The notes under the pieces: generated by a model
Databases searched by the model: none
The model's input: the letters and a program-made list of their open reading frames with translations, nothing else
Told to the model about the DNA's origin: nothing
Position numbers and translations under genes: made by a program
In this document: piece after piece, positions 6,341-38,378 of the stretch
How the letters are laid out: the number at the start of each line of letters is the position of its first letter
Numbering within the stretch: position 1 is the stretch's first letter
NCBI GenBank assembly: GCA_038078755.1
Contig: JBBTSQ010000032.1
Location: 1 to 47,650 of the forward strand
DNA length: 47,650 bases
From: Patescibacteria group bacterium
Lineage (GTDB): Bacteria; Patescibacteriota; Minisyncoccia; Phycocordibacterales; JBAYGS01
Direction: 5' to 3'

Positions 6341-7282
6341 GTGATCAATATATTCGCTAAAAAATCGTTGGGGCAGAATTTTCTTCACTCGAAACCGACG
6401 ATTGAGAAAATCGTAGAAGCAGGGGAGGTGGTCTCAACAGACATCGTGCTTGAAATTGGCCCGGGTACTGGGTTTTTGACCGAACAGCTTCTTTTGAAGG
6501 CTGGTAAAGTGATTGCTGTCGAAAAAGACGACCGCCTTATCCAGCCTTTGAAAGAAAAATTCTCAAAAGAAATTGCAGAAGGAAGACTTGTTGTTATCCA
6601 TGAAGACGCCTTAATTTTTGACCCTGAAGTATTCCTAGGAACCGTGAAATCGGATGCAATTCGAGGCGCAAGCGAGGCTTGTGACCAAGACGTACAGAAG
6701 TACGTTGCGGGAGCAAATGAGCGAAGCAACAAAGAAGTGCGCCGATTTCACGGTTCCTATAAATTAATTGCGAATATTCCGTATTACATTACCGGACAAT
6801 TCTTCCGCCGATTCCTGTCAGAAGTTACTCAACCAAACACACTCGTCGCCCTAATTCAAAAAGAAGTGGCGGACCGTATCGTGGCCACTGACAACAAAGA
6901 AAGTTTGCTCTCGCTTTCGGTCAAAGCCTACGGCACACCGAAACGCGTAGCGATAGTCGGACGAGGTTGTTTTACTCCCGCGCCAAATGTTGATTCGGCC
7001 ATTATCGCCATCACACACATTTCCAAACAATTTTTCGATGATTCTCCTGAGCAAGAAAAAGTATTCTTCGAACTGATTCGCGCTGGCTTTGCACATAAAC
7101 GGAAAAAGATTTTAAGCAACTTAAAATCAACTAGCAACTTACAACAAACAACTGACAATCAGAAAAGAAAGACGGTTGATTTTGAAAGACTTTTTGAAAC
7201 ACTCAAAATATCAAAAAATGTTCGGGCAGAAGATTTGACGCTCGAGATATGGAAAAAGATATTGTCGTTGCGAGTAGATTAA
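6341..7282 (+). CDS. rsmA: 16S rRNA (adenine1518/1519-N6)-dimethyltransferase RsmA/KsgA (start GTG 6341 or upstream 6308)
   Basis: 'KSLGQNFL', the SAM-binding 'EIGPGTGFLT' and 'ANIPYYITG'. An insertion of about 30 aa lies between the 'DALIFD' and 'NIPY' motifs. Confidence 0.9.
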   Translation: MINIFAKKSLGQNFLHSKPTIEKIVEAGEVVSTDIVLEIGPGTGFLTEQLLLKAGKVIAVEKDDRLIQPLKEKFSKEIAEGRLVVIHEDALIFDPEVFLGTVKSDAIRGASEACDQDVQKYVAGANERSNKEVRRFHGSYKLIANIPYYITGQFFRRFLSEVTQPNTLVALIQKEVADRIVATDNKESLLSLSVKAYGTPKRVAIVGRGCFTPAPNVDSAIIAITHISKQFFDDSPEQEKVFFELIRAGFAHKRKKILSNLKSTSNLQQTTDNQKRKTVDFERLFETLKISKNVRAEDLTLEIWKKILSLRVD

Positions 7283-14281: not shown

Positions 14282-14429
14282 ACACAAAACTCACAATACA
14301 CAACATACAACTTACAATCAGAGGAGACACGTTAGAGACCCTCTCTTTTATGAGGTGACACCTGAGAATCAGAGAATAATTCGTTAGGTCTTGCCTAACG
14401 CATTAAATAAAAAGTGGGTATGATATAAA

Positions 14430-15026: not shown

Positions 15027-15245
15027 TTAACCCTATTGTAGCAAAAGGCAACGCAAAACCCCAGCGGACCTTTCGGCTAGCTGGGGCGTGTATAAATACA
15101 TACTATACTATAGAATATTTTTCGTCAATGGGGTGTTGATAAGTAAGACATAGCGCATGTACATCCAATCAAAGGAAATGAATTCAACAGCAGAGCAGCT
15201 CTGCTCTGTCATTGGAGGCAGTCTTATTGAGCCATAATATGAAGT

Positions 15246-15288
15246 AAAGGCTCAATCCGCCGTGGCGGATTGAGCCTTTACCTTTTTT
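15246..15288. terminator. Hairpin aaaggctcaatccgcc-gtgg-ggcggattgagccttt with a T-run on the plus strand
   Basis: 13-bp GC-rich stem followed by 'accttttttg' on the plus strand. It lies just downstream of the minus-strand PrgI-like gene. A near-identical hairpin occurs at 33528-33561. Confidence 0.6.
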
Positions 15289-15741: not shown

Positions 15742-15895
15742 AGGGTAAGTATAGCAGGCAAAATCAATTTTGTCAGAAAAATTGATTTTGCCTGCTAAAT
15801 TTCTAATACCTAAGTCCTAATTTCTAAATAAAATTAAGAAATGGCTCTTTTTCTTAGAGTTAGGAATTATAATTTAGAACTTAGGACTTTCGCGA

Positions 15896-17710
15896 CTACT
15901 TTGCACTTGTCGCGAGTTCCTGCTTCGCCCGTTTAATAGCCAAGATTTGAGAAGGGTCTGAAGTAATAATCTGATCTTCGGTGTACGAAGCAATCACTTT
16001 AATCGCCACATGTTTCAATCCCACAAAGAAAATCCCTTCTCCCACATCAGATTCGAGCAAGAGGAATTTTTCTTCATCGGTAAGATTGAACGTCTTTTGA
16101 ACAGTATCAATCGAGGACGGAGATTGTTTGAGCAAAATCTGGATTGATGAGTTGGTCACAATCGGCAAGCCATATGGTGATTTCAAAAAGTCATCGACGT
16201 CTTGGGTGATGGTGGCAAGTCCCAAATAATATTTTCGTCCGCGCTTTGCAAGGGAGAGCAGGAAGGATGCGGTGTCTTCCGACTTCATCATCCACCACGC
16301 TTCATCGATCACCAAAAGGCGTTTTTTGAGATTCTTACGCACCGCGTTCCAGATATAATGAGTGACAATATACATCGCTACCGGCTTCAACTCATCTTCC
16401 ATATCCCGAAGCGAGAAGACGATAAATTTCTTGTTGATATCAACGTTGGTCGGACGATTGATAAAGCCCGCCCACGTCCCCTTGGTATATTTGGTCAGTT
16501 TTTGTACCAGTGAATCTGCTCCCTCCATACCAGCGAGCACCAGCTCAAAGTCAGAGAGAAGTGGCGGTTCTATTTTTGAGAAGTCAGCATCGGCGGTAAT
16601 ACCTTTGAGCGCGTAGGTTTCGGTAATCGCTCGATCAATAATCGCATCTTCTTCGGGCGAAAGTCCCCCGAGCATAATGCGGAATAGTCCGACCAAATTG
16701 ATGATGTTTGATCGAAGAACATCGGCAGGGGACTCATCTTCTCTTGGGATTGGCAGATCAAATGGGTTGATGTGGTTGGTAGAGTTGAGAGAGATATTAA
16801 AATACTTTCCACCGGTAGCTTCTGCCATATATTCATACTCACGTTCTGGGTCAATCACAATCACCTCGGTATCAAACATCAACGTACGCAAAATCTCGAG
16901 TTTGGTAGTGTATGATTTTCCTGAACCGGATTTTGCAAAAGTGATCGAGTTGTAATTTTCAAGTGAAAATCGGTCAAACAGCACCATGCTCGAGTTGTGG
17001 CGGTTGACTCCAAACAAAATTCCCTTGTCAGATGTCAGGTCAAAGGATACAAATGGGAACATACTCGAAAGCGGGGAGGAGTTGAGTTTCGAATGTACAT
17101 TGAGCTGGTCATCCACAATCGGCAATGAGCTCATATATCCTTGCTCCTGTTGAAACAGCGCTGGTTTCACATAGACCAATTTTGATTCGAGAATCGATTT
17201 GATTTCCGACTCGGTCTTATCAAGTTCATTCACATTTTCACCATAAATAGTGATGTATAGTCCAACATCAAAAAGCTTTTCTTGGGCTTGCTGGAGATTA
17301 TCTCGAAGGCCTTCGAGATCGTGATAGGCAGTATCGAGCATTGGATCGCGGACGAGTCCTTTCGCTTCACGTTGATTAATCTGGCTCTGTACTTCGGCCA
17401 CTTTCTTTTGAAATTGGCGGAGTACCTGCGCGGTATCAATCGGATGAATAAAAAGAGAAATGTTGAAAATCTTTTCGAGATTGATAATAGGGGAGAACCA
17501 TGAGTCAGTCAAAAAGCGCGGGTAGGAAATGACAAAAAAGGTGCGGACGATCTTGTCTCCCAAATTGAGCTCTCGGGGGCTGATTTTGAGCGCGCTTGGC
17601 GCGATCACATCTTGGAGTTCAAGCACCCCTGCATCATAAATTTGCTGGGGCAGAATCGGCGCAATACTCGCCTCTGGCTTTTTCTTTTTTAAGAAATCAA
17701 AAAATCCCAT
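15896..17710 (-). CDS. virB4: VirB4/TraC/PrgJ-like type IV secretion ATPase
   Basis: Walker A 'AKSGSGKSYTTK', Walker B 'RLLVIDEAWWMM' and 'LATITQDVDDF'. The N-terminal 'IAPSALKI...VRTFFVISYPRFL' domain is typical of VirB4. Confidence 0.9.
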   Translation of the reverse strand: MGFFDFLKKKKPEASIAPILPQQIYDAGVLELQDVIAPSALKISPRELNLGDKIVRTFFVISYPRFLTDSWFSPIINLEKIFNISLFIHPIDTAQVLRQFQKKVAEVQSQINQREAKGLVRDPMLDTAYHDLEGLRDNLQQAQEKLFDVGLYITIYGENVNELDKTESEIKSILESKLVYVKPALFQQEQGYMSSLPIVDDQLNVHSKLNSSPLSSMFPFVSFDLTSDKGILFGVNRHNSSMVLFDRFSLENYNSITFAKSGSGKSYTTKLEILRTLMFDTEVIVIDPEREYEYMAEATGGKYFNISLNSTNHINPFDLPIPREDESPADVLRSNIINLVGLFRIMLGGLSPEEDAIIDRAITETYALKGITADADFSKIEPPLLSDFELVLAGMEGADSLVQKLTKYTKGTWAGFINRPTNVDINKKFIVFSLRDMEDELKPVAMYIVTHYIWNAVRKNLKKRLLVIDEAWWMMKSEDTASFLLSLAKRGRKYYLGLATITQDVDDFLKSPYGLPIVTNSSIQILLKQSPSSIDTVQKTFNLTDEEKFLLLESDVGEGIFFVGLKHVAIKVIASYTEDQIITSDPSQILAIKRAKQELATSAK

Positions 17711-17778
17711 ATAGACATAGTATACTATGTAAATTTCTAATTTCTAAGTCCTAATTTCTAATAACTGCTGATTGGACA

Positions 17779-18154
17779 TTACTTTGTAACACTTTTATCT
17801 CTCGAATTCTTCACAATGGTAATAAAAATGAGGTGTAATTCGTGGGCTTCCTGCCACAAACGCCTTGCGGTATCAGCATATTCTGGTTTTGCTCGAGCAA
17901 TCATTCTGAGCCAATATCTCGATTCTTTGGCTTCTTCTTTACAAATACCAATTTTATGTTCAAAATCCTTTTTTGATTCTGCACAATCAGCCTCGCAATA
18001 AATTAGAGCCAATACTTGTTGCAGACCGCGCAAGCTGATTTACCAGTGTTGAAGTAATACTATCTTTAGGAATTTTCTTTAAAAAGTCTATGGCTTTTTC
18101 TCCAAATACCGCCGTCCTCTCCTCGAGATCATAAACTTTCTTGCTCTGATTCAT
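17779..18154 (-). pseudogene. Four-helix-bundle protein gene (23S rRNA-IVS / Avd-like family) disrupted by a +1 frameshift near 18000-18002
   Basis: From ATG 18154 the reading frame gives 'MNQSKKVYDLEERTAVFGEKAIDFLKKIPKD..NQLARSATSIGSN', then stops at codon 56. The family continuation 'YCEADCAESKKDFEHKIGICKEEAKESRYWL' is in the next frame. One extra T in 'aatTtat' explains the shift. Confidence 0.7.
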
Positions 18155-18183
18155 TAGAAATTATAATTTAGAAATTAGGGATT

Positions 18184-18225
18184 GCCCATTTCTTTAGCTT
18201 AGTCGACTAAGCTAAAGAAATGGGC
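18184..18225. terminator. 42-nt perfect palindrome overlapping the stop codon of 18207..18848
   Basis: gcccatttctttagcttagtc|gactaagctaaagaaatgggc, a 21-bp stem centred on GTCGAC. Confidence 0.6.
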
Positions 18226-18848
18226 TTCTCGGTGTCGCCTGGATTAAATATCTTGTAAAACAACTCGATGATTTCCTCGGTACCAAGCTGAACCACTCGA
18301 ACACCCGACCGCATCAGCCCTTGGGTCACCACAGACGCTCGCTGGTCAAGCTGGGTGCGATTTTCTTCAAACGAAGCGGTTTTCTCTGCTACAGTTTCTT
18401 GCCCTTTTTTTGAAAAAATACCACCGACGCCCTTGGAAGCATTGAGGGTTGGGGGTGTATATGGTACAGACACAAAGAAAGTCTTAGTCATAATGTTGGC
18501 GTTGTCGGTAAAGTTTTTCACAAATTCGATATACTCGCGAGTTTGAATTTTCAAAATATCACTCATTTGCTGTTTTTGTCGCTCTTCAAGGAGAGCGACG
18601 TACGGCCTGATATCAAGCCGACGAGATTGCACAAACACTTGTATAGAAAAATCGAGAGAGTTTAGGAAATTTTGGAATTGGTAGATGATAGATTGCTGTT
18701 CGTCTGCCGATTTCAAGGCGAAGTTGATCGATGATGCCATCAAAATAATTCGCATCCCGCCGTTTTTGAGAATAAGTACCCCATCTCGTACCTCCTTGAT
18801 CGGTACAAATTCTTGAGTGGTTTTTGCATTTTGGGTACTTTCAGACAT
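18207..18848 (-). CDS. Stand-alone protein resembling the N-terminal domain of Gram-positive VirB4/TraC ATPases
   Basis: 'FVPIKEVRDGVLILKNGGMRIILMASSINFALKSADEQQSIIYQFQNFLNSLDFSIQVFV' follows the N-domain pattern seen in Tn916 Orf16-type VirB4. There is no Walker motif. ATG 18848 is preferred because the upstream ATG 18866 lies inside a TGGTATACT box. Confidence 0.5.
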   Translation of the reverse strand: MSESTQNAKTTQEFVPIKEVRDGVLILKNGGMRIILMASSINFALKSADEQQSIIYQFQNFLNSLDFSIQVFVQSRRLDIRPYVALLEERQKQQMSDILKIQTREYIEFVKNFTDNANIMTKTFFVSVPYTPPTLNASKGVGGIFSKKGQETVAEKTASFEENRTQLDQRASVVTQGLMRSGVRVVQLGTEEIIELFYKIFNPGDTEKPISLA

Positions 18849-18929
18849 TTGAGGTAAGTATACCATAGGAGGAAATTCCTAATTCCTAAATTATAATTTC
18901 TAATGGGGATAATGGTGGAGGGGAAATTT

Positions 18930-18962
18930 CTCTGGCTTCGCCAGATCTCCTGCGGAGCGAGA
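18930..18962. repeat. 33-nt inverted repeat, left arm (partner 22392-22424, 32/33)
   Basis: tctggcttcgccagatctcctgcggagcgagat. It contains the local hairpin tctggc-ttc-gccaga. Confidence 0.85.
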
Positions 18963-19120
18963 TAAGTTCTAATACCTAATTTCTAAAAGGAATCAAAGAT
19001 AGACGAGAAAGCCTCTGGTTTAGAAATTAGGACTTAGGTATTAGCAATTTGTGTTCGCAGTCATTTTGTGTGTCCACACCCAACTAGATACTATGAAATA
19101 TAGGATGGTATACTATATAT

Positions 19121-23885: not shown

Positions 23886-24074
23886 GGTAGGGGAAGTATA
23901 TAATAAAAAAGGTATAAAGTAAAAAGTATGAAGTATGGGAACAGACAGCAGAACACAGACGACAGACAAGAAACTGACAACTGACAATCAGATAAGAAAA
24001 AGCCCCCGAAATCACTTCGCGATTTCGAGGGCTTTTGTCTCCATACTTTATACCCTCCCCTCCATACCTCCCCA

Positions 24075-24300
24075 AATGGGTTGAGCCTTTAAACTAAATT
24101 TCACCAAAAAGCGCTAAAAGTCACTACGTCAAAAACCGTGTGATAATTTCCCAAACGGCGTTGTGGTGTAGCCACAGAATGCTCGAACGGCTCACTCTTT
24201 TTGGCTTCAAAAGCAGTGAGCCGTTTAACTGTATGGTGCTTATGTAGAGCCATCTTTTTGCTAAAAAGCAAAAAGATGGCTCAGTTGAGGTTTTTTCTGA
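24075..24300. repeat. Mosaic relative of the 28065/33314 hairpin element, inverted relative to the 33.3-kb copy
   Basis: It shares the hairpin core aacggctcac...gtgagccgtt. Its reverse complement also shares cgtttgggaaattatcacacg, gtgactttt, tttttggtgaaa and aaaggctcaa blocks with 33423-33540. Confidence 0.7.
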
Positions 24301-24324
24301 TTGTCAGTTGTGTGTTGTTAATTG

Positions 24325-24687
24325 TTAGTTTTTCCCCACCCTATCAACCAATCCTTGTTTAATCTCTGCCATCACCTCTTCAAAGGGTATTTTTTCCGCC
24401 CCCGATTTGGCAAAGATAATCAGTGTGATTGGTGGAAAAGTAAGCTCTTCACCAATTGCTCTGACTGCCCGATAAATTTTTCGGGTAATCGCGTGCCGAG
24501 ACACGGCCGTCTTAAATATTTTTTTGCTCGCGACCGCAGAAATCCGTACCAAGCTACCGCTTTTTAATCCAGCTTGTTCGGGCATAGGAAGGTATCGAAA
24601 AGAAAAGTGGGGGGTGTGCGCCACCTTCCCACTTTTCATTACTTGATCAAACAAATTGGTACTAACTCGTGCGCGTTTTGGAAGCAT
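24325..24687 (-). CDS. rnpA: Ribonuclease P protein component
   Basis: A basic ~120-aa protein ('MLPKRARV...', 'SRHAITRKIYRAVRAI') located between rpmH and yidC, as in most bacteria. Confidence 0.8.
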   Translation of the reverse strand: MLPKRARVSTNLFDQVMKSGKVAHTPHFSFRYLPMPEQAGLKSGSLVRISAVASKKIFKTAVSRHAITRKIYRAVRAIGEELTFPPITLIIFAKSGAEKIPFEEVMAEIKQGLVDRVGKN

Positions 24688-27765: not shown

Positions 27766-28022
27766 TGCTTTCCATCGGCTCACTACTCGATAGGTTTAAG
27801 GGCCCTCTCACCGATCGGATTCGGGTGGAGGAGTCTGTGATTAAGGTTGTACAAGAGGTGTGTGGGATTACACTCACCCCAAAACAAATTCAGTTTAAAG
27901 CGAATGTGGTGTCGCTCGCGATAAGTCCGGGAGCGAAGCAAGCGGTGTACATTAAAAAAGAACAGATTTTGGCGAAAATTAAATTAGAATTGCCAAAAAT
28001 ACCAATAATCGACATTCGATAG
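27765..28022 (+). CDS. DUF721/DciA-like small protein
   Basis: 'VIKVVQEVCGITLTPKQIQFKANVVSLAISPGAKQAVYIKKEQILAKIK' follows the DUF721 pattern. The start overlaps the dnaN stop (TAATG). The position after dnaN is typical. Confidence 0.55.
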   Translation: MLSIGSLLDRFKGPLTDRIRVEESVIKVVQEVCGITLTPKQIQFKANVVSLAISPGAKQAVYIKKEQILAKIKLELPKIPIIDIR

Positions 28023-28064
28023 TATTTTTTCTAAACAGACCCTCAACAGAGCCATAAAATGCTC

Positions 28065-28183
28065 GAACGGCTCACCGAGCACCATGCTTATTACTTACAA
28101 GCATACTACTAAAAGAACCAGTAACACCCTATTACTCTTTACCCATACGTTCGATACATATGGTGCTTCGGTGAGCCGTTCAG
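28065..28183 (+). repeat. 119-nt hairpin element, copy A
   Basis: Identical to 33314-33435 except for a 3-nt indel. The arms gaacggctcaccgagcaccat / atggtgcttcggtgagccgttc (about 21 bp, one bulge) enclose about 75 nt. Confidence 0.9.
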
Positions 28184-28362
28184 CACTTTTAGGCCTAACT
28201 AGAGCCGTCCTGTGGCAAAAAGTCGAAAATATAGCTCTAGTTAGTCTTAAAATAATCACTCAAAAATAATTGACTTTTTATGTTAATACGAGTAGTGTAT
28301 TAAATGGATGATTTGTAAAACAAACAAAAACTACTAAGTGGTAGTAAAAAGAAAGGTTCTTT

Positions 28363-28770
28363 GTGAAAACCGTTGATGGTTCTTTGGATAGTCCTTTGTT
28401 CACAACCAAATCGGTGCTATTTTTTGTGGCAGTAATCGCGTTTCTCCTGATAATCATTGTAACCTCTATTAGGGCTAGGGAGATGGATACCGAAATTCAG
28501 AAATCGATTGCACAAAAACACGGCTTCAATCAAGGTCTTGGCCGTCCCACATCGCTCACCAATCTCAATACGTTCACCTACATTACCTTTCTCGGTAGTT
28601 TCCAAGGGAATGATGGTCAGATATATTTAGTGGCTTTGGTGGGAACCAATAGCGCACCAACGCTTTTCAACACAGGCACCAACGAGCCTCCTCGCGAAGC
28701 GCGAGAGAGAAGTATTCTCCTCTACGATGGCAAAAGACTCATTTCGATACCGAAAGAAAAGTCTGAGTAG
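28363..28770 (+). CDS. Signal-anchored hypothetical protein (GTG start)
   Basis: 135-aa ORF with one N-terminal TM 'VLFFVAVIAFLLIIIVTSI'. No known motif. Confidence 0.45.
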   Translation: MKTVDGSLDSPLFTTKSVLFFVAVIAFLLIIIVTSIRAREMDTEIQKSIAQKHGFNQGLGRPTSLTNLNTFTYITFLGSFQGNDGQIYLVALVGTNSAPTLFNTGTNEPPREARERSILLYDGKRLISIPKEKSE

Positions 28771-28872
28771 TCATTCTTCACCACCACCCCAGGGCAACCT
28801 GCGGTGGTTTTTAATTTTCCGTTTTTACCGGCTGGTCTATCCTACTTTTTATATCCCTTGCTTCTCCACTAT

Positions 28873-31422
28873 CTAATCTACAATAAACATCGTGTTCACT
28901 TCGGTACGATTAAGCATCGCGTCGTACACCACCACTTGCAACGTGTTGTCGGTGTTAAGAATTTCAAGATCGCTCGGGATAAATGAAAAAGTGTTGTTGT
29001 TTGATGAGCCGAGATAGAGGCCGTTGACTGAAATATCGGCTCGCAGTAATGGATACTTACCACTGTAATTCAAAGATACCGAAAGGGGTGTATCTTTTTG
29101 GTAGTGTCGATTCGAGTTTGGTGACATTAGGGTCACTTTCGGTACCGTGTCCGGTGTGTGTATATCATCGGTTTGAGTAGGAACGACCAACGATGGATTC
29201 TCATCGGTAAAATTTTGTTCTTGCGCCCATTTTCGAACTGGATATTCCCAGTTGGTAAATTGAGAGTCTTTTTCCGGATGCTCGGGAACTGGTCCGCGCG
29301 GATTATTTTTATCTACCCAATAGAGGATGGAGTGGACCGCGCGCACTACCTTGTCCTGCTTAAGCTCGGTGGGGGTGTATTCAGTCGCCAACTTTCCTGA
29401 TGCGTTATCAACAGTAAACACCTGTCCACCTTGCCACATATTTCGCAATACTGGTTTCAGAGTGTGTGGATCTTCTGATTCTGGTTTTTTAAATGGCTCG
29501 TTTGGCGCTCCCTCAAGCGCTACTTTCATAAACGCATTCCAAAATGGAGCAATGATAAATCCAGCCACCTTTTTCTCCATCGGACTGTTGTCATTGTTGC
29601 CGGCCCATGCTCCGACCGCTAATCGGGGAGTGTAGCCGATAATCCACGCGTCGCGGTAATCGTTGGTAGTACCGGTTTTGACCGCTACGGTGTGTCCCGG
29701 AACATAGAGGTATGAGCGAGTTCCAAACGCCGGCGCTCGAGCTTTTTCATCAGAGAGGATACTTGAAATGTGCAAAGCGGTTTGTTCGGGAAGCACTTCT
29801 ACGGGGTGTGGTTGGTGTTGCTCAAGCACCTTTCCATTTTTATCTTCCACACGCACGATGGCGTGGCTTGGGTTGCGAACACCGCTCTGAGCAAAAACTC
29901 CGTACGCGCTGGTCATCTCAAGCAGGGACACTTCGCCGCCACCGAGGACGAGTGTTAGGCCGTACTGATTAACATCTTTGAGGCTGGTGATACCCATATC
30001 TTTGGCAGTTTTAAGAGAGTCTTTCACACCGGCAAGATAGAGCGTCTTGATGGCGGGAATGTTGATGGATTGCGCCAAAGCCTCTCGCATCGTGATCGGC
30101 CCGCGATAGATGTGGTCGTAATTTTCCGGGGCATAACAGCCGGTATCTATCGGCGCGCCGGTTGGGGTGGTGGTGGGCGTGTTGCCGTCAGGAGCGCAGG
30201 ATGCTTGGAATTCGGTGCGAAGGTCAAAAAGCACGGTATCTGGCGTATATCCTTTTTGAAAAGCGGTGGCGTAGGCAAAGGGCTTGAAAGTCGAGCCGGG
30301 TTGTCTACTGGCGGTGGCGACATTGAAATTACCCTCGATTTCTTTGTCAAAATAATCTCGAGACCCAACCATGGTGAGAATATCTCCGGTTGATGGATCG
30401 AGCGCGATCAACGAGATATTTTCAGCGTTAAAAGCCGTTTTATTTTTCAAGGCAAATTCAAGAGCAAGGTCTTCAGCCTTTTTTTGCAAATCGTAGTTGA
30501 GGGTGGTGATCACTTTCAAGCCATCCTGCTCAATCGCGCGCTTACCATATTTTTTTTCCAAATAGTCTTTAACATAAAATACGAAATGGGGCGCCTTGAG
30601 ATTGGCACCTTCCTCCGGAGCAAAAAGCACCACTTCCGTTTTTGCGGCGGCATATTCTTTTTCGGTGATGAATTTATTTTCCAACATCTTTTTCAGCACC
30701 AGATTTTTTCGAGCCGTGAGCTCGTCTACGTGCGAGCCATACGGAGAGTATCGGCTGGGTGCTTGGGGCAGGGCGGCGAGGTATGCTGATTCAGCGAGAG
30801 ACACATCACGCGCTGATTTACCAAAAAATGCCTTGCTTGCCTCCTCAACCCCGTACATATTGCCTCCATACGGCGCTTCGTTGAGATAGAGGGCCAAAAT
30901 CTCCTCTTTAGTGAGGATGCGTTCAATTTTTAAAGACAGTACCCACTCCTTGAGCTTACGGGAGATTTTTTTGTCGATAGTGAGAATAGAGTTTTTCACT
31001 ACTTGTTGGGTAATAGTCGAACCTCCTTGGCTATAACTGCCGGCGCCGAGGTTGGCGAGAACTGCGCGGATAATCGAGGTGATTTTAATCCCATGATGTT
31101 CATAGAATTCAGCATCTTCGATGGCGACGGTTGCGTTTTTGATATGACGAGAGATATCTTCAAATGGGACGATGGTGCGTTTAGTATTCTCAAACACATC
31201 ATAGAGCAGTATGGTGCCAGTGCGATCATAAATCTTGGTCGATTCAGTCACTTTCCGTTTTTCAAACGAGCGAAGATCGGGGGTTTGGAATGTAGAAATC
31301 CAAAACAAAAATATCGCGGAGAGTAGTAGGCCAACTGAACCAGCAACTAACCCCCACTCTTTTAGGGAATGGTGGTAGCGTCTTTGTAGGATGTGCAGTT
31401 TGTGACGGACAGGGCGCTTCAT
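28873..31422 (-). CDS. Class A penicillin-binding protein (PBP1A-type transglycosylase/transpeptidase) with a ~200-aa C-terminal extension
   Basis: GT51 motifs 'EDAEFYEHHGI', 'GGSTITQQ' and 'RKLKEW'. Transpeptidase motifs 'SRQPGSTFKP' (SxxK) and 'KTGTTND' (KTG). Confidence 0.9.
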   Translation of the reverse strand: MKRPVRHKLHILQRRYHHSLKEWGLVAGSVGLLLSAIFLFWISTFQTPDLRSFEKRKVTESTKIYDRTGTILLYDVFENTKRTIVPFEDISRHIKNATVAIEDAEFYEHHGIKITSIIRAVLANLGAGSYSQGGSTITQQVVKNSILTIDKKISRKLKEWVLSLKIERILTKEEILALYLNEAPYGGNMYGVEEASKAFFGKSARDVSLAESAYLAALPQAPSRYSPYGSHVDELTARKNLVLKKMLENKFITEKEYAAAKTEVVLFAPEEGANLKAPHFVFYVKDYLEKKYGKRAIEQDGLKVITTLNYDLQKKAEDLALEFALKNKTAFNAENISLIALDPSTGDILTMVGSRDYFDKEIEGNFNVATASRQPGSTFKPFAYATAFQKGYTPDTVLFDLRTEFQASCAPDGNTPTTTPTGAPIDTGCYAPENYDHIYRGPITMREALAQSINIPAIKTLYLAGVKDSLKTAKDMGITSLKDVNQYGLTLVLGGGEVSLLEMTSAYGVFAQSGVRNPSHAIVRVEDKNGKVLEQHQPHPVEVLPEQTALHISSILSDEKARAPAFGTRSYLYVPGHTVAVKTGTTNDYRDAWIIGYTPRLAVGAWAGNNDNSPMEKKVAGFIIAPFWNAFMKVALEGAPNEPFKKPESEDPHTLKPVLRNMWQGGQVFTVDNASGKLATEYTPTELKQDKVVRAVHSILYWVDKNNPRGPVPEHPEKDSQFTNWEYPVRKWAQEQNFTDENPSLVVPTQTDDIHTPDTVPKVTLMSPNSNRHYQKDTPLSVSLNYSGKYPLLRADISVNGLYLGSSNNNTFSFIPSDLEILNTDNTLQVVVYDAMLNRTEVNTMFIVD

Positions 31423-31479
31423 AATGAAAGTTGTAGTATACCATTTTTCTAGGCGAAATAAGTGGAATTGTGCTAGAGT

Positions 31480-32715
31480 ATGGGCATGTTTTTCAGTAAA
31501 AAAGACACCATACTCACACCTACCCCTGATACCATCAAGGATTTTCTTTCTCGCGGGGTTGAGATGGTATACCCTTCGGCTGATTTTTTAGCAAGTCGAC
31601 TTACTTCAGGAAAGAAGCAGACACTTTTTTTGGGTATTGATCCCACTGGACCAACCCTACATTTGGGACACGTGATTATTTTGAAAAAATTACGCGATTT
31701 TCAGAAAATGGGGCATCAAGTCATCCTGCTGATCGGTGATTTTACGGGAATGATTGGTGATCCGACTGACAAGACCGCCACCCGCAAAAAATTGACTAGA
31801 GGTGAGGTGCTCAAAAATGCTACGTTGTATAAAAAACAAGCTTCAAAGTTTGTCTCATTTTCTGGGGTCAATAAAACACAGCTCCGATACAATTCAGAAT
31901 GGTTGTCACCTATGCGTTTTGATGAAGTGCTTGAGTTGGCATCAAATATTACCGGCGATCAACTAATGAAGCGAGATATGTTTGCAAAGCGTCTCGAGGA
32001 AGGAAAATCAACCTATCTTCACGAACTGCTGTACCCACTTCTACAGGGTTACGATAGTGTGGCGATGGACGTCGATGGTGAAATTGGGGGCAACGACCAG
32101 ACATTTAATATGTTGGTTGGTCGAGACTTGATGAAGAAGCTCAAGAACAAAGAAAAATTCGTGATGACTATGAAGCTCTTGGTGGATACGTCGGGCAAAA
32201 AGATGGGCAAGACTGAAGGGAATATCGTAGCGCTCACGGATAGTCCGAGCGAAATGTACGGCAAGGTGATGAGCTGGACAGATGGGATGATTGTGCGCGG
32301 GTTTGAGCTTTGTACTGATGTGCCAACCTCGGAAATTGGCGCGATTGAACGATCACTTGCTTCGGGAGCCAATCCAAAAGAGCATAAAATGCATTTAGCG
32401 AAAGCGGTGGTAACACTGCTGACTTCTGCAAAAGATGCGGTGGTGGCCGAACAATCATTTATTAGTCAATTTAGTCGAGGGGAAGTGCCGGAAGATGTAA
32501 AAACTGTTTCAGTGGCTTCGGGCGCATTGCTTTCCGAAGTGCTTTTAAGTGCCGGACTGATTGAGTCAAAAGGTGAATTCAAACGATTGGTGGAAGAAAA
32601 AGCAGTGCGCAATCTTTCAAACGATAGTGTGATTGAGCGATTTGATACGACTGTCTCCGAAGCGATGACTGTGAAGGTGGGTAAGCGCCGGTTTTTGAAA
32701 ATTATTCTAAAGTAG
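31480..32715 (+). CDS. tyrS: Tyrosine--tRNA ligase (the ATG at 31486 may be the true start)
   Basis: HIGH motif 'PTGPTLHLGH', KMSKS motif 'KMGKT' and a C-terminal S4-like domain. Confidence 0.95.
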   Translation: MGMFFSKKDTILTPTPDTIKDFLSRGVEMVYPSADFLASRLTSGKKQTLFLGIDPTGPTLHLGHVIILKKLRDFQKMGHQVILLIGDFTGMIGDPTDKTATRKKLTRGEVLKNATLYKKQASKFVSFSGVNKTQLRYNSEWLSPMRFDEVLELASNITGDQLMKRDMFAKRLEEGKSTYLHELLYPLLQGYDSVAMDVDGEIGGNDQTFNMLVGRDLMKKLKNKEKFVMTMKLLVDTSGKKMGKTEGNIVALTDSPSEMYGKVMSWTDGMIVRGFELCTDVPTSEIGAIERSLASGANPKEHKMHLAKAVVTLLTSAKDAVVAEQSFISQFSRGEVPEDVKTVSVASGALLSEVLLSAGLIESKGEFKRLVEEKAVRNLSNDSVIERFDTTVSEAMTVKVGKRRFLKIILK

Positions 32716-32763
32716 AGTCCGGTCTCGTGTAGTATGAGGTGTCACCTCATGGGCGCCACCTTA

Positions 32764-32787
32764 CCTGTGGAATTAATTTTCCACAGG
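32764..32787 (+). terminator. Hairpin cctgtggaa-ttaatt-ttccacagg downstream of tyrS
   Basis: 9-bp perfect stem. The T-tract is weak (ttgctcttt), so the assignment is tentative. Confidence 0.45.
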
Positions 32788-32864
32788 TTGCTCTTTGAAC
32801 GTATTTACAAATAAAACAGGTTTTGCTACAACTATGGCTATTAACGGATTAGTCCCGTTTTGTT

Positions 32865-33131
32865 ATGGCACCAAATAAGAAACAAATTAAAAAAATAGTA
32901 AAGAAGCATAGCCTGGGAGCGGTTGATACGACAGAAGAAGTAAAAAAGAAGGTCGTTGGGGAGGAAGGAGAGGATGCTCACGCCGAGAAAGATAGACCCG
33001 TTAATTTAGGGGATGATTTTGAAGAGCCCGTCGAGGGTGGAGATGATTTTGGTGGCCCGATTGAATCTGAAGATGATGAGGATGATACGTTGTACAGCTC
33101 GGCGGATAGCGAGGATCATCATTATGAGTAG
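32865..33131 (+). CDS. Small, very acidic protein (basic N-terminus, Asp/Glu-rich body)
   Basis: 88-aa ORF 'MAPNKKQIKKIVKKH...GDDFEEPVEGGDDFGGPIESEDDEDD'. No known family was recognised. Confidence 0.45.
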   Translation: MAPNKKQIKKIVKKHSLGAVDTTEEVKKKVVGEEGEDAHAEKDRPVNLGDDFEEPVEGGDDFGGPIESEDDEDDTLYSSADSEDHHYE

Positions 33132-33313
33132 GATGGAGCAAACTAACAACCAACAATCTACAACTTACAATCAGAGTAAGATAAAGAGCGGCGATGTAGG
33201 CGCTGCTCTTTGTGCATAGGACCGTCCTTTGCAATACATTCAAAGAATTTATATTTAGAGCCATTTCTTCAACTTTTCGCTGTAGCGTGCCTATGTAGAG
33301 GCCCAAAAGTGCT

Positions 33314-33435
33314 GAACGGCTCACCGAGCACCATGCTTATTACTTACAAGCATACTACTACTAAAAGAACCAGTAACACCCTATTACTCTTTACCCATAC
33401 GTTCGATACATATGGTGCTTCGGTGAGCCGTTCAG
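33314..33435 (+). repeat. 122-nt hairpin element, copy B
   Basis: Identical to 28065-28183 apart from one extra 'cta'. It continues 3' into blocks shared with the 24.1-kb relative. Confidence 0.9.
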
Positions 33436-33527
33436 GCATTTTGTGGCTTTATAGCAATGTCGTTTGGGAAATTATCACACGCTCTTTGGTGCAGTGACTT
33501 TTGGTGGTTTTTGGTGAAAATTAAGTT

Positions 33528-33561
33528 AAAGGCTCAATCCGCCGCGGCGGATTGAGCCTTT
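33528..33561. terminator. Hairpin aaaggctcaatccgcc-gcgg-ggcggattgagccttt (33/34 identical to 15246-15279)
   Basis: 13-bp GC-rich stem between convergent genes (acidic protein plus strand, ruvC minus strand). There is no clear T-run. Confidence 0.5.
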
Positions 33562-33729
33562 AAACTATAACAAAACCTTTTTTGTGAATAATCCTGTGAA
33601 TTATCTCTGAACAACTAGTGGATAGACTATAATATGGCCCTGTAACAAGCTTTAATTACATATTTTTCTAAGCAAACTCTTATCCACATATGTTAATATC
33701 GCTGTTTTTTAAACTTTTCTACATTCGAT

Positions 33730-34230
33730 CTACTGTCTCAGTATCTCGTCGCTCCCACTCCTCGACACAGCTAGGCAGGTTATCCCCACCGCGATGGCGT
33801 CATATTCATCATCGTGGGCGATGTTTTTGTCGATTTTGAGTAGGCGAGGGATCATTGAAATCATCTGTTTTTTGTCACTTTTGCCATAGCCGGTGACCGC
33901 TACTTTAATTTCGAGAGGAGTGTATTCGTGAATGGTGAGATCCGCGAGAGATCCTTCGTACATAATTACTCCGCGCGCTTCCGCCACACCCATCGCCGTC
34001 TTTTGGTTGGTGGTGAAGTATAATTTTTCAATAGCTAGACGCTCCGGCTGGTACTCTTTAATCAACTTTTTAATTTCTTGACCGATTAGTGCAATTCGAG
34101 CAGGCAACTTTTCTTCTTTGACTGTCTTGAAACAATCCGAGTATACCAGTACTTCTTTTTGTTTGGGCAATTTCTCAATCACCGCAATACCGACACGCTC
34201 ATACCCGGGATCGATGCTTAATATTCGCAT
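33730..34230 (-). CDS. ruvC: Crossover junction endodeoxyribonuclease RuvC
   Basis: 'MRILSIDPGYERVGIAVIE', 'EYTPLEIKVAVTGYGKSDKKQM' and 'HDDEYDAIAVG'. Confidence 0.9.
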   Translation of the reverse strand: MRILSIDPGYERVGIAVIEKLPKQKEVLVYSDCFKTVKEEKLPARIALIGQEIKKLIKEYQPERLAIEKLYFTTNQKTAMGVAEARGVIMYEGSLADLTIHEYTPLEIKVAVTGYGKSDKKQMISMIPRLLKIDKNIAHDDEYDAIAVGITCLAVSRSGSDEILRQ

Positions 34231-34278
34231 AAGGGAAGTATAACAATGAAAACAGAGAAAAAACAGTTTTCATTGTTG

Positions 34279-34344
34279 ATTCGACTTCGACTCAAACGCT
34301 GTGTGAATGCAGACATCCCCACGCGATTTTCGCTCGTCGAAATA
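34279..34344. repeat. 66-nt direct repeat, copy 1
   Basis: attcgacttcgactc...cgctcgtcgaaata. By hand count, 52/66 positions match 34481-34546, and the termini are conserved. Confidence 0.75.
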
Positions 34345-34480
34345 GGGTATAAAGTATGAAGTAAAAAGCTATATATGCCCCTGCGGCAGAAACCGCGGGG
34401 TAATCTTGGAACTCGTCCGTCCGACCGTCCGAACGGACTCATAGAGACGCGTGGCAGAGACCACGCGGTAGTGACCTATA

Positions 34481-34546
34481 ATTCGACTTCGACTCGGACG
34501 CTGTGTACAATCAGAATTGTCCACGCGCTCCTCGCTTGTCGAAATA
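34481..34546. repeat. 66-nt direct repeat, copy 2
   Basis: attcgacttcgactc...cgcttgtcgaaata. See copy 1. Confidence 0.75.
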
Positions 34547-34573
34547 AAATAACGCGCCTTCCAGCGCGTTATT

Positions 34574-34807
34574 TTATACAGTTAGCGGAGTTTTTGTTGT
34601 AATTTTAATTGGTATACCATTCCGTATATTTTTCTCAAGTTCCGAACCCTGTTGTGATGAAGCGTCTAAGAGTTCAATGCCCAAAGTTTCTCCATTTTTA
34701 TTAACGTCAATAGTAAGGTGCTCATTTATAACAAGTGTTTTACTCACTGTTCCTTTTTTAACAGTGAAGTATATGGCATCGGCTACTTTATCGTAATTTA
34801 TTTTCAT
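34574..34807 (-). CDS. DUF2283-family small protein (putative antitoxin)
   Basis: 'INYDKVADAIYFTVKKG...TIDVNKNGETLGIELLDAS' is the DUF2283 pattern. It overlaps the upstream DUF4258 gene by 4 nt. Confidence 0.7.
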   Translation of the reverse strand: MKINYDKVADAIYFTVKKGTVSKTLVINEHLTIDVNKNGETLGIELLDASSQQGSELEKNIRNGIPIKITTKTPLTV

Positions 34808-35031
34808 TTGTAGTACGCAGTTATAAGTAGGTATTCTTCTTTATCTCGAAAACTCTCTTTACAGTATATCACTTCGATTAACTTACCTTCAATGCGCTTA
34901 CTCACTCTAATCTTACCATCAAAAACGAGCTCCTTTGAGTCCGGACACCGAATGGCTTGTTTTATATGCTCAAAATTGATGTTCCGCTCACTCAATCGGC
35001 TCTGAAAATGCGCAGTTTGTTTGAGCTTCAT
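34804..35031 (-). CDS. DUF4258-family small protein (putative toxin)
   Basis: 'HFQSRLSERNINFEHIKQAI...LLITAYY' fits the DUF4258 pattern. Translationally coupled to the DUF2283 gene. Confidence 0.7.
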   Translation of the reverse strand: MKLKQTAHFQSRLSERNINFEHIKQAIRCPDSKELVFDGKIRVSKRIEGKLIEVIYCKESFRDKEEYLLITAYYK

Positions 35032-35042
35032 ACAGTATACGA

Positions 35043-35573
35043 TTACTCGGCATTTGTAAATACCTCCTGCACTTCGTCGTTGTTTTCGAGGGCATCAACA
35101 AGTGCTTCAAGTTTTACACCGTCTTCTTCCGAGAGGGGGAGGGTTGAAGTGGGTTCCCATCCAGCACCAACTTTTTTGAACGCCCAGAGTGCACTGCCGA
35201 CAGAGGCCAGTTCACTCCCGTGTTGCGAGAGAATAAATTTCACTTCTTGCGCCGCTTTGTTTTTGTTGTCGGTCAAAGCTTCGATGATGAGGGCACAGCC
35301 GCCCGGGCCATAGGATTCGTAGGTGATGGCGTCCATTGAGCCAGTGTTTACTTCGGTGGCTTTTTTAACCGCGCGGTCGATGGCGTCGTTCGGCATATTT
35401 TCTCCACGAGCGCGATCAATCACCGCTTTCACATTTGCAGAATCACGATTACCGCCAGCCTTTTTGGCCTCAACGGTGATCAAGCGGGCGTACTTGGTAA
35501 AGATTTTACTCTTTTGACCATCCGTCTTCGCTTTTTTATTTTTGATCTGTGACCATTTGTTGTGACCGGACAT
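35043..35573 (-). CDS. yebC: YebC/PmpR-family protein (short form)
   Basis: 'MSGHNKWSQIKNKKAKTDGQKSKIFTK' is the family N-terminal signature. ATG 35573 is preferred over the upstream 35615. Confidence 0.85.
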   Translation of the reverse strand: MSGHNKWSQIKNKKAKTDGQKSKIFTKYARLITVEAKKAGGNRDSANVKAVIDRARGENMPNDAIDRAVKKATEVNTGSMDAITYESYGPGGCALIIEALTDNKNKAAQEVKFILSQHGSELASVGSALWAFKKVGAGWEPTSTLPLSEEDGVKLEALVDALENNDEVQEVFTNAE

Positions 35574-38222: not shown

Positions 38223-38378
38223 TCCTCGATTATAGCAATAATCGAGGAGGGGAGATAGGAGCAAACTATATATACAAAAGACAACGGCTCAACCAGTTCA
38301 TGGTTGAGCCGTTGTTTCAAAATATGCTCCTACAGAGCCATATTTCAGTAAAACAAGGCAGAAAAGTAAGAAAAGTGC

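What the first reader, a model, noticed from the sequence alone, without database searches (positions are those of the whole stretch)
28065..33435. Perfectly conserved 119/122-nt hairpin element present twice in direct orientation, 5.2 kb apart
28065-28183 and 33314-33435 are identical except for one 3-nt indel (cta), while the surrounding intergenic DNA differs. Each copy folds as a ~21-bp stem (gaacggctcaccgagcaccat / atggtgcttcggtgagccgttc, one bulge) that extends imperfectly into the flanks and encloses about 75 nt. Both copies are co-oriented with local transcription: one follows the DUF721 gene and one follows the acidic-protein gene. The ORF through them (MLITYKHTT...) lies inside the stem and is unlikely to be coding. 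Candidate explanations are a MITE-like element, a recently copied structured ncRNA, or a processing/termination module. The direct repeats could also mediate deletion or duplication of the PBP1A-tyrS segment.
Basis: seen in the sequence. Interest (0 to 1): 0.65.

Follow-up and report, generated by a model that had tools for sequence, protein, structure and literature searches.

The report
Long-tipped copies of a terminator-hairpin repeat
The two identical 119/122-nt sequences are real, but they are the centres of two members of a species-specific family of intergenic terminator-like hairpin repeats in a groundwater Parcubacteria genome. They share a recently copied 95/98-nt insert at the hairpin tip, which makes this a fairly ordinary kind of small selfish or neutral repeat rather than an RNA gene.

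Summary
28065-28183 and 33314-33435 are identical except for one unit of a (TAC)n microsatellite. Thirteen independent contigs span one or other copy. Unitig depth indicates two copies per genome. The interpretation needs changing. The outer 11 bp of each arm (GAACGGCTCAC/GTGAGCCGTTC), plus about 15 nt of imperfect flank, is the conserved stem of a hairpin-repeat family resembling REPIN/BIME elements and bidirectional terminators. At least four members lie in 66 kb of this genome and more appear in the same metagenomes. Other members carry unrelated 19-20-nt tips with compensatory changes. Only the 95/98-nt inner part is unique to the two copies. Their flanks are about 70% alike and in opposite orientation, so the long tip moved or was converted independently of the surrounding hairpin. 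A strain 93-98% identical (L082/L088) and two sister species lack it at both sites. A third strain carries one copy that is about 91% identical. Its changes and frameshifting indels all lie in the loop and break the predicted inner hairpin. Rfam gives no match, no conserved promoter is present, and no RNA-seq data exist. The best reading is a recent tip transfer between family hairpins, by template switching, gene conversion or transposition in trans. Interest is low to moderate.

The parts
28065..28183 (+). Copy 1 as reported (119 nt): the family stem GAACGGCTCAC/GTGAGCCGTTCAG plus the long tip
28076..28170 (+). The 95-nt long tip, which is the part unique to the two copies. It has an inner inverted repeat CGAGCACCAT/ATGGTGCT(T)CG around a 75-nt A+T-rich interior
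   Evidence: Its boundary is set by other family members that carry 19-20-nt tips between the same stems
33314..33435 (+). Copy 2 as reported (122 nt)
33325..33422 (+). The 98-nt long tip in copy 2, with one extra TAC
   Evidence: Logan contigs skip exactly 33324->33423 and carry 19-nt tips instead
28049..28197 (.). The whole inverted-arm hairpin at site 1 (arm AGAGCCATAAAATGCTC-GAACGGCTCAC and its imperfect complement ending in TTTT)
   Evidence: Arm-profile hits at 28049-28075(+) and 28197-28171(-); fold
33298..33449 (.). The whole inverted-arm hairpin at site 2. Its arms are swapped relative to site 1: the left arm AAAAGTGCT is the exact reverse complement of copy 1's right arm AGCACTTTT
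28199..28240 (.). Second, weaker hairpin of the outer element at site 1 (CTAGAGC...GCTCTAG)
   Evidence: Homologous to 24247-24282 and to the reverse complement of 33235-33313
33216..33297 (.). Outer-element 'right part' at site 2, in inverted orientation
   Evidence: c1R against rc(c2L): score 20 versus 8.2+-1.6, 0/1000 shuffles. Absent in L082
33450..33525 (.). Outer-element 'left part' at site 2, in inverted orientation
   Evidence: 81% identical over 105 nt to the reverse complement of 24078-24184 (E 5e-26)
33526..33563 (.). 17-bp bidirectional terminator-like hairpin AAAGGCTCAATCCGCC..GGCGGATTGAGCCTTT. This is a separate, more abundant repeat, also found at 15242-15283
   Evidence: depth 5-10x the single-copy level
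24169..24240 (.). Third family member (site 3, between rnpA and yidC): the same stem with the 20-nt tip TCTTTTTGGCTTCAAAAGCA
38279..38317 (.). Related simple hairpin AACGGCTCAA..TTGAGCCGTT followed by TTT
28084..28269 (+). Spurious ORF (MLITYKHTT...) that runs through copy 1
   Evidence: The C-termini differ between the two copies, and the X11/X12 variant has frameshifting indels

Best explanation
The window comes from a groundwater Parcubacteria (Patescibacteria) MAG. Nearly every intergenic region in it holds a long hairpin flanked by A-runs and T-runs, the shape of a bidirectional intrinsic terminator. One family of these hairpins consists of two inverted arms of about 26 nt (consensus ..GCCAYAAARTGCT-GAACGGCTCAC) around a variable tip, the same layout as a REPIN or a BIME (two inverted REPs plus a linker). 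Most members have a 19-20-nt tip that is itself a small hairpin. Tips differ completely between members, and even between orthologous loci of strains about 95% identical, while the stems stay identical. So tips are replaced as blocks, most likely by template switching or gene conversion that uses the palindromic stem as homology (inferred). The two sequences in the finding are members whose tip is a 95/98-nt module, with a 10-bp inner inverted repeat and a 75-nt A+T-rich interior of unknown origin. That module was copied from one family hairpin to another 5.2 kb away very recently. It shows zero substitutions and one microsatellite slip. It lies in opposite orientation relative to the asymmetric arms, which is possible because the homology or target is a perfect palindrome. 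Shown: the family, the nesting, the inverted flanks, two copies per genome, absence in close relatives, and fast, unconstrained change of the interior. Inferred: the copying mechanism, and the idea that the hairpins act as terminators or 3'-end stabilisers while the long tip itself has no function.
For: Family and nesting: site 3 has the same stem with a 20-nt tip. A further member lies 2.6 kb left of the window (L072). Logan contigs in five runs skip 33324->33423 and carry tips TCCCGCACAGTTTGCGGAA, TCCCGCACGGCTTGCGGGA or TTCCGCACGCCGTGCGGAA. In the family hairpin 94.7% of cells are paired and 10 of 18 pairs change on both sides; 0/500 shuffles reach the observed paired fraction, count of both-side changes or covariation score, and slid controls give 33-43% paired. 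Block replacement of tips: at orthologous site 3 the stems are identical between the window and L088, but only 3 of 20 tip positions match. Independence from the flanks: the core is 100% identical while the flanks are about 70% identical and inverted. c1R against rc(c2L) scores 20 versus 8.2+-1.6; c2R against rc(s3L) scores 63; direct comparisons are not significant. Recency and absence: strain L082/L088 (93-98% nt identity) has no core anywhere in the roughly 26 kb read. An X12 contig spans site 1 with 127 other letters in place of 214. Sister species L002 and L083 lack the core, and L083 has a degenerate short-tip hairpin at site 1. Two copies per genome. Interior unconstrained: the X11/X12 variant has 9 substitutions and 2 one-nt deletions relative to copy 1, all listed ones in the loop, whereas the neighbouring acidic-protein gene has 4 differences in 302 nt. 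Inner hairpin A is destroyed. Terminator-like context: arms end in AAAA..TTTT on both strands, positions are downstream of genes, and 47 hairpins with stems of 11 bp or more were catalogued in the 66.5 kb, mostly intergenic. The arm profile hits only this species among 1.0 Mb of Patescibacteria loci.
Against: Only two (or three) long-tip copies are known, so the mechanism cannot be told from copy statistics. No donor with homology beyond 11-13 bp has been shown for a conversion event. The origin of the 75-nt interior is unknown, with no match in any collection. Termination has not been measured, and a 75-nt loop is atypical for an intrinsic terminator. Copy 2 sits behind a separate terminator hairpin (33183-33212), so it is not needed for termination there. 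The rest of the genome could not be searched for a transposase.
Confidence: 0.6

Rival explanations
1. The 95/98-nt module is a non-autonomous transposable element: a MITE, a PATE of the IS200/IS605 type, or a solo module of an IS110-type element such as ssr9 of ISPpu9. It specifically targets the apex of this hairpin family and is moved in trans by an enzyme encoded elsewhere in the genome.
For: It has 10/11-bp terminal inverted repeats and small size. It sits in the same place in two family hairpins in both orientations. Close relatives lack it. A roughly 91%-identical copy in strain X11/X12 lies on a contig whose other 1 kb did not align, in the pieces listed, to the parts of either site that were laid. 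REP hairpins are known IS targets (PMC1525189), and ISPpu9's ssr9 module moves alone into REPs (PMC12288879).
Against: No target-site duplication is present; only an ambiguous CG occurs at both junctions. There are only 2 copies per genome. The strains that lack it do not show a clean empty site but a different sequence: 72 nt replace 159 at site 1, and 714 nt replace 239 at site 2. Short tips are also swapped as blocks without any TIR, so a transposase is not needed to explain the pattern. No transposase lies in the 66 kb examined.
Confidence: 0.25
2. The element is a structured non-coding RNA, either a 3'UTR-derived sRNA or a processing module, that was duplicated recently and is kept in the sense orientation behind two genes.
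For: Both cores are co-oriented with the upstream gene. The fold is strong, with z about -5 to -7. Three loop changes in the X11/X12 variant keep one small predicted stem through G-U/G-C pairs (inspected by eye on the differences; not computed).
Against: Rfam gives no match at the gathering score or at E<=10. No promoter sits in a common position. The opposite strand folds even better. The variant has five deleted bases relative to copy 2 and destroys inner hairpin A, and its MFE interior differs. The core is absent from a strain 93-98% identical and from both sister species. Same orientation in 2 of 2 copies has a 50% chance expectation.
Confidence: 0.07
3. One copy is an assembly artefact, or the repeat marks a real tandem duplication or circular form of the 5.2-kb PBP1A-tyrS segment.
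For: The junction 'acidic gene - core - right flank of copy 1' appears in contigs L066 and L068 and in a 2x Logan contig of X6, and it is compatible with X1 record 3. The reciprocal junction was never seen.
Against: Thirteen contigs support the linear order. L068 is riddled with 1-nt deletions at 2.2x. L066 overhangs by exactly 127 nt, which I recall (not checked) is SPAdes' largest k-mer, at 1.0x. Depth inside the segment is 8.4-9.0 against 8.0-9.4 outside in X3. The core unitig has 2x depth, not 1x or 3x.
Confidence: 0.05

Closest known systems
REPINs (REP doublets forming hairpins) of Pseudomonas and enterobacteria (PMC3116915, PMC3337134)
   Same: Two inverted copies of a short conserved sequence are separated by a spacer and fold as one long imperfect hairpin. 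They are intergenic, multi-copy and lineage-specific.
   Different: No RAYT gene could be looked for. No GTAG-type 5' tetranucleotide is evident. Copy number appears to be tens, not hundreds. Here the spacer (tip) is the most variable part and can be 19-98 nt.
BIMEs of E. coli (inverted palindromic units joined by alternative linker motifs) (PMC3333891, PMC2817692)
   Same: It is a mosaic of conserved palindromic units with alternative central linkers of different length. It lies at 3' ends of genes and between convergent genes. From memory, the long BIME linker carries an IHF site; this offers a model for a long tip with a function.
   Different: The sequences and the phylum are unrelated. 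No protein binding is known here. The long linker here is itself bounded by an inverted repeat and occurs only twice.
IS elements and IS modules that insert into REP hairpins (IS1397 from memory; ISPpu9/ssr9, PMC12288879; PMC1525189)
   Same: A discrete piece of DNA sits inside a repeated extragenic hairpin. The small non-coding ssr9 module occurs alone at some sites.
   Different: No transposase, no A/B-box-like ends and no shared core dinucleotide have been shown. The size is about 100 nt.
ERIC/IRU, Correia (NEMIS) and other bacterial MITE-like palindromes (review PMC3184786)
   Same: These are 100-150-nt imperfect palindromes that are co-transcribed with flanking genes. From memory, ERIC exists in longer forms with internal insertions at fixed sites, and Correia elements can act as terminators or RNase III substrates.
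   Different: Those families have tens to hundreds of near-identical copies and, for Correia, TA duplications. Here only the stem is shared by the family, and the insert has two copies.
Hairpin-loop inversions and quasipalindrome template-switch mutations
   Same: Flipping or replacing the sequence between two short inverted repeats without a dedicated enzyme would explain both the orientation flip and the block replacement of tips.
   Different: This is a mutational mechanism, not an element family. It is known to me from chloroplast and E. coli work (from memory, not checked here).

Membership tests
Classical MITE | Terminal inverted repeats | tested here: met
   CGAGCACCAT / ATGGTGCT(T)CG bound the 95/98-nt module
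Classical MITE | Target-site duplication flanking the element | tested here: not met
   The flanks are inverted (CAC / GTG), not direct. Only an ambiguous CG dinucleotide occurs at both junctions
Classical MITE | Many copies at unrelated sites, with precise empty sites in relatives | tested here: not met
   Two copies per genome, both inside family hairpins. Relatives show replacement by other sequence, not precise absence
Classical MITE | A cognate autonomous IS with the same ends | not testable with these tools
   Only about 66 kb of the genome was reachable, and no transposase lies in it
REP / REPIN / BIME | A conserved short palindromic unit that is repeated and intergenic | tested here: met
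   Four members in 66.5 kb plus at least five further tips in metagenome contigs. The arm profile hits only this species
REP / REPIN / BIME | Inverted doublet with a spacer that forms one long hairpin | tested here: met
REP / REPIN / BIME | An associated RAYT (Y1 HUH transposase) gene | not testable with these tools
REP / REPIN / BIME | High copy number (>100 per genome) | tested here: inconclusive
   Summed contig depth over the arm is about 3.5-5x the single-copy level at >=90% likeness. The total is unknown
Intrinsic (bidirectional) terminator | A G+C-rich stem directly followed by a T/U run, with an A run upstream | tested here: met
   AAAAGTGCT-GAACGGCTCAC...GTGAGCCGTTC-AGCACTTTT
Intrinsic (bidirectional) terminator | A short loop | tested here: not met
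   The two long-tip copies enclose 75-78 nt, so the scan tool did not call them. Short-tip members meet the criterion
Intrinsic (bidirectional) terminator | Transcript 3' ends at the U run | not testable with these tools
   No RNA runs hold this sequence
Structured ncRNA gene | A match to a curated family, or covariation that supports the interior fold | tested here: not met
   Rfam gave nothing. The variant breaks inner hairpin A and carries indels
Integron attC site | R''/R' boxes RYYYAAC/GTTRRRY (consensus recalled from memory), extrahelical bases, and arrays of cassettes next to intI | tested here: not met
   GCTGAAC/GTTCAGC deviates at position 4. Short-tip members are fully paired. The DNA between the sites is dnaA-dnaN and PBP1A-tyrS, syntenic with relatives

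The most novel reading that the evidence does not exclude
The apex of this terminator-hairpin family is a dedicated landing site, or exchange cassette. Under this reading, tips of 19-98 nt are actively swapped between loci by an unrecognised hairpin-specific enzyme (HUH/Y1 or an RNA-guided IS110-like recombinase), and the 95/98-nt module is a minimal mobile element that lives only in terminator tips of an ultra-small CPR genome.
Probability: 0.12. Interest if true: 0.6.

Novelty: new member of a known kind. Interest (0 to 1): 0.3.

Why it matters
Two full-text searches turned up no description of MITE- or REP-like repeats in Patescibacteria, whose genomes are tiny and usually thought of as streamlined. 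This window shows that at least one Parcubacteria lineage carries several families of long terminator-like hairpin repeats. These repeats turn over much faster than the genes around them, through whole-tip replacement, deletion and acquisition of a 95-nt module, within strains that are 93-98% identical. This is useful as a strain marker. It warns that such repeats break short-read assemblies and can produce duplication-like junction contigs. It is also a small natural system for studying palindrome-driven sequence exchange. It does not point to a new gene, RNA or defence system.

Tried and rejected
1. Rfam at gathering score over the whole window, and at E<=10 on 27950-28350, gave nothing relevant. 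There are no tRNA or tmRNA genes.
2. Exact-arm scans gave 0 hits in genome contigs. Metagenome contigs gave only the same locus as copy 2. Viral contigs gave two unrelated simple hairpins. BLAST against phages and plasmids gave no match.
3. The 98-nt insert has no other similarity in the window, the flanking 19 kb or 52 other Patescibacteria loci.
4. The coding reading (ORF MLITYKHTT..) is rejected. The C-termini differ between copies, the start codon is buried in the stem, and the variant has frameshifts.
5. The integron attC reading is rejected (see the membership test).
6. There is no promoter inside the core. Promoter-like hits near it are at chance level and not in homologous positions.
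7. No RNA-seq runs are available.
8. The search for the site of the diverged X11/X12 copy failed. A homology search with that ORF found only the L082 contig at 100% and otherwise proteins of <=60% identity with no annotation. Cluster-member contigs were too short.
9. The duplication test by depth gave an inside/outside ratio of about 1.0 in X3. The other runs are too shallow.

Full report
OBSERVATION. 28065-28183 and 33314-33435 are identical over 119 nt apart from three extra bases in the second copy. The extra bases are one unit of a TAC microsatellite, (TAC)2 against (TAC)3. Its length is polymorphic in the population, because runs X18 and X15 carry the short form at site 2. The 21-nt arm occurs twice in the window even when 3 mismatches are allowed, against 0 expected. 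Each copy folds into a 21-bp stem with one bulged T. The stem continues imperfectly into the flanks and encloses about 75 nt (-56.2 and -61.1 kcal/mol, z -7.0 and -5.3). The opposite strand folds at least as well.

SOURCE AND REALITY OF THE REPEAT. The window is the last 47.6 kb of a 130.6-kb contig of MAG GCA_964364845.1. Near-identical DNA is found only in groundwater metagenomes of three studies, including the Hainich wells H41, H51 and H52 and their 0.1-um filter fractions. The closest genome in the species collection is a 'Candidatus Parcubacteria' MAG with 84-85% TyrS identity, and the next hits are Paceibacterota/Patescibacteria. The local genes are rpmH-side rnpA, yidC, dnaA, dnaN, an 85-aa ORF, a 135-aa ORF, PBP1A (minus strand), tyrS, an acidic 88-aa ORF, ruvC and yebC. 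Five independent contigs span copy 1 and eight span copy 2. In Logan runs X2 and X3 the shared core is its own 119-nt unitig at 14.1 and 14.6x, against 7.3 and 9.0x for the flanks. The only flank sequences joined to it are those of the two sites. So there are two real copies per genome.

WHAT THE ELEMENT REALLY IS. The outer 11 bp of each arm (GAACGGCTCAC ... GTGAGCCGTTC) is not private to these two copies. A third locus, between rnpA and yidC (24169-24240), has the same stem around a 20-nt tip, TCTTTTTGGCTTCAAAAGCA. A fourth locus, 2.6 kb left of the window, has the tip TGGTTTTGTCCCAAAACCA (L072). Contigs in five sequencing runs match both stems but skip exactly 33324->33423. In its place they carry TCCCGCACAGTTTGCGGAA, TCCCGCACGGCTTGCGGGA or TTCCGCACGCCGTGCGGAA. 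Hence only 28076-28170 and 33325-33422 (95/98 nt) are unique to the two copies. I call this part the long tip. It sits at the apex of a family hairpin.

The family hairpin extends about 15 nt further on each side as two imperfect inverted arms (..GCCAYAAARTGCT-GAACGGCTCAC), ending in an A-run on the left and a T-run on the right. A profile of these arms hits only this species in 1.0 Mb of Patescibacteria loci. Across nine members and relatives, 94.7% of cells are paired and 10 of 18 pairs change on both sides. None of 500 shuffles reaches the observed paired fraction, count of both-side changes or covariation score, and slid controls give 33-43% paired. The layout is two inverted conserved units plus a variable spacer. 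That is the layout of REPINs and BIMEs (PMC3116915, PMC3333891). The shape is that of a bidirectional intrinsic terminator. A catalogue of the 66.5 kb found 47 hairpins with stems of 11 bp or more, up to 25 bp. Most are intergenic, many are flanked by A-runs and T-runs, and they fall into several sequence families.

THE LONG TIP MOVED INDEPENDENTLY OF ITS SURROUNDINGS. The cores are 100% identical, whereas the DNA around them is only about 70% alike and inverted. After excluding the conserved stem, the right flank of copy 1 matches the reverse complement of the left flank of copy 2 (score 20 against 8.2+-1.6, 0/1000 shuffles). It also matches the right flank of site 3 in direct orientation (score 22). 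The right flank of copy 2 matches the reverse complement of the left flank of site 3 (score 63; by BLAST, 81% over 105 nt, E 5e-26). The direct comparisons are at background level. Copy 2's left arm, AAAAGTGCT, is the exact reverse complement of copy 1's right arm, AGCACTTTT. So the outer element lies in opposite orientations at the two sites while the long tip, including its asymmetric bulge, lies in the same orientation. Any copying must therefore have used only the perfectly palindromic stem as homology or target, or the tip was flipped afterwards by exchange between the arms.

COMPARISON WITH RELATIVES. Sister species L002 is syntenic but has 576 nt where the window has 875 at site 1, and 174 nt where the window has 634 at site 2. 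It has no family hairpin at either place. The more distant L083 (TyrS 75%) has a degenerate short-tip hairpin at site 1 and a short spacer at site 2.

Strain L082/L088 is 93-98% identical in most genes and has no long tip in the roughly 26 kb read. At site 1, 72 nt holding two A+T-rich hairpins replace window 28055-28213. At site 2, 714 nt including an unannotated 136-aa ORF replace 33215-33454. A 2.2-kb contig of run X12 spans site 1 in the same L082-like form, with 127 letters in place of 214.

At site 3 the window and L088 have identical stems but share only 3 of 20 tip positions, and the neighbouring second hairpin differs by several compensatory pairs. Tips are thus replaced as blocks on a time scale shorter than 5% sequence divergence. 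This is the simplest precedent for the transfer of the long tip.

IS THE LONG TIP FUNCTIONAL? Runs X11 and X12 hold a single diverged copy at single-copy depth (9.1 against 9.5). Relative to copy 1 it has nine substitutions and two 1-nt deletions. All listed differences lie between the arms. The first 30 nt are unchanged, and the last 30 nt could not be read. The acidic-protein gene in the same runs differs at only 4 of 302 positions. The variant destroys the predicted inner hairpin GCTT..AAGC, changes the predicted interior fold and shifts the reading frame.

Rfam has no match at gathering score or at E<=10. Promoter-like hexamers are at chance frequency and not in homologous positions. No RNA run holds the region. 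The interior has no similarity to anything in the genome, metagenome, viral, phage or plasmid collections. I conclude that the interior is not under detectable constraint, that the ORF is spurious, and that an RNA-gene reading has no support. It cannot be formally excluded without transcript data.

MECHANISM. The most likely account (confidence about 0.6) is as follows. A lineage-specific REPIN/BIME-like family of terminator hairpins has apical spacers that are exchanged between members by template switching or gene conversion through the palindromic stem. The long tip is one such spacer that grew or captured about 75 nt of unknown DNA, and it was copied very recently to a second member 5.2 kb away. 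The hairpins themselves probably terminate or stabilise transcripts in both directions. This is inferred from their shape and position and has not been measured.

The main rival (about 0.25) is a non-autonomous transposable module that targets the hairpin apex and is moved in trans. This would resemble the ISs that insert into REPs (PMC1525189) or the ssr9 module of ISPpu9, which transposes alone into REPs (PMC12288879). Several points count against it: no target duplication, only two copies, no clean empty site, and the fact that TIR-less short tips are swapped too.

DUPLICATION OR ARTEFACT. A junction 'acidic gene - core - right flank of copy 1' is present in L066, L068, a 2x Logan contig of X6 and possibly X1. 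This is the junction expected from a tandem duplication or a circle of the PBP1A-tyrS segment, and the reciprocal junction was not seen. However, L068 is full of 1-nt deletions at 2.2x coverage. L066 overhangs by exactly 127 nt at 1.0x coverage, a length I recall to be SPAdes' largest k-mer. In X3 the depth inside the segment (8.4-9.0) equals the depth outside (8.0-9.4). I treat these contigs as repeat-induced mis-joins. A low-frequency variant is not excluded.

NOVELTY AND VERDICT. The kind of element is well known: extragenic palindromic repeats with alternative linkers, possibly with a nested MITE-like module. This particular family, and its presence in a Patescibacteria genome, appears undescribed. 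Two full-text searches found nothing on MITE- or REP-like repeats in this phylum. The finding is real and tidy but biologically modest, so interest is 0.3. The most novel reading still open is an enzyme-driven tip-cassette system, or a mobile element restricted to terminator apices. I give it about 0.12.

Noticed in passing
window 34215-35047: A DUF2283 gene (34574-34807, minus) and a DUF4258-like gene (34804-35031, minus) form a likely toxin-antitoxin-type pair. Together with flanking repeats they are an insertion of about 830 bp between ruvC and yebC, absent in L002, L082 and L083.
   Followed up: partly
window 34236-34344 and 34479-34547; L076 12781-12930; L088 14666-14773: A repeat of about 110 nt (AACAATGAAAACAG..CAGTTTTCATTGTTGATTCGACTTCGACTC..CTCGTCGAAATA) always abuts the start of a minus-strand gene: ruvC, a 345-aa gene, and yidC in strain L088 but not in the window. 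It looks like a portable 5' leader or promoter module. It has no Rfam match at gathering score.
   Followed up: no
window 24197-24216 vs L088 15228-15246: At the orthologous rnpA-yidC hairpin the stems are identical between two strains, but the 19-20-nt tip is a completely different sequence (3/20 matches). The adjacent second hairpin (24247-24282) differs by several compensatory pairs.
   Followed up: yes
window 8550, 24246, 28048, 33257, 38334 (+); 15841 (-); L076 11620-11650: The 8-mer AGAGCCAT occurs 6 times on the plus strand and 2 on the minus strand in 66.5 kb (about 1 expected per strand), always in intergenic DNA and often upstream of promoter-like TTGAC..TATACT sites. It is part of the left arm of the hairpin family but also occurs alone.
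   Followed up: partly
window 7128-7164, 14287-14323, 33140-33176, 24293-24330 (rc), 23940-23990: G-poor, CA-rich tracts ending in CAATCAGAG/A follow at least two stop codons directly (those at 14281 and 33131) and precede the terminator hairpins. They may be a common 3'-UTR signal, perhaps rut-like.
   Followed up: no
window 15242-15283 and 33526-33563: A 17-18-bp hairpin, AAAGGCTCAATCCGCC-GYGG-CGGATTGAGCCTTT, is repeated. Its depth in Logan contigs is 5-10x the single-copy level, so it is a more abundant terminator-like repeat family than the one in the finding.
   Followed up: partly
L066 3442-3698; L068 481-3306; X6 contig: Low-coverage contigs join the acidic-protein gene through the core to the DNA right of copy 1, which is a duplication- or circle-type junction. 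The reciprocal deletion-type junction was never seen. Depth in X3 does not support a duplication.
   Followed up: partly
L082 7784-8194 (site 2 of a sister strain): A 136-aa ORF with no Pfam match occupies the place of copy 2's hairpin in strain L082. Its homologues are <=60% identical and scattered in metagenomes without annotation.
   Followed up: partly
window 15796-19050: Several copies of a TTTCTAA-rich repeat of about 32 nt (TAAATTTCTAATACCTAAGTCCTAATTTCTAA) occur in both orientations. They flank the genes that match type IV secretion-like families in L088 (PrgI, VirB4/TraC-like).
   Followed up: no
The label rests on position only.
   Followed up: yes
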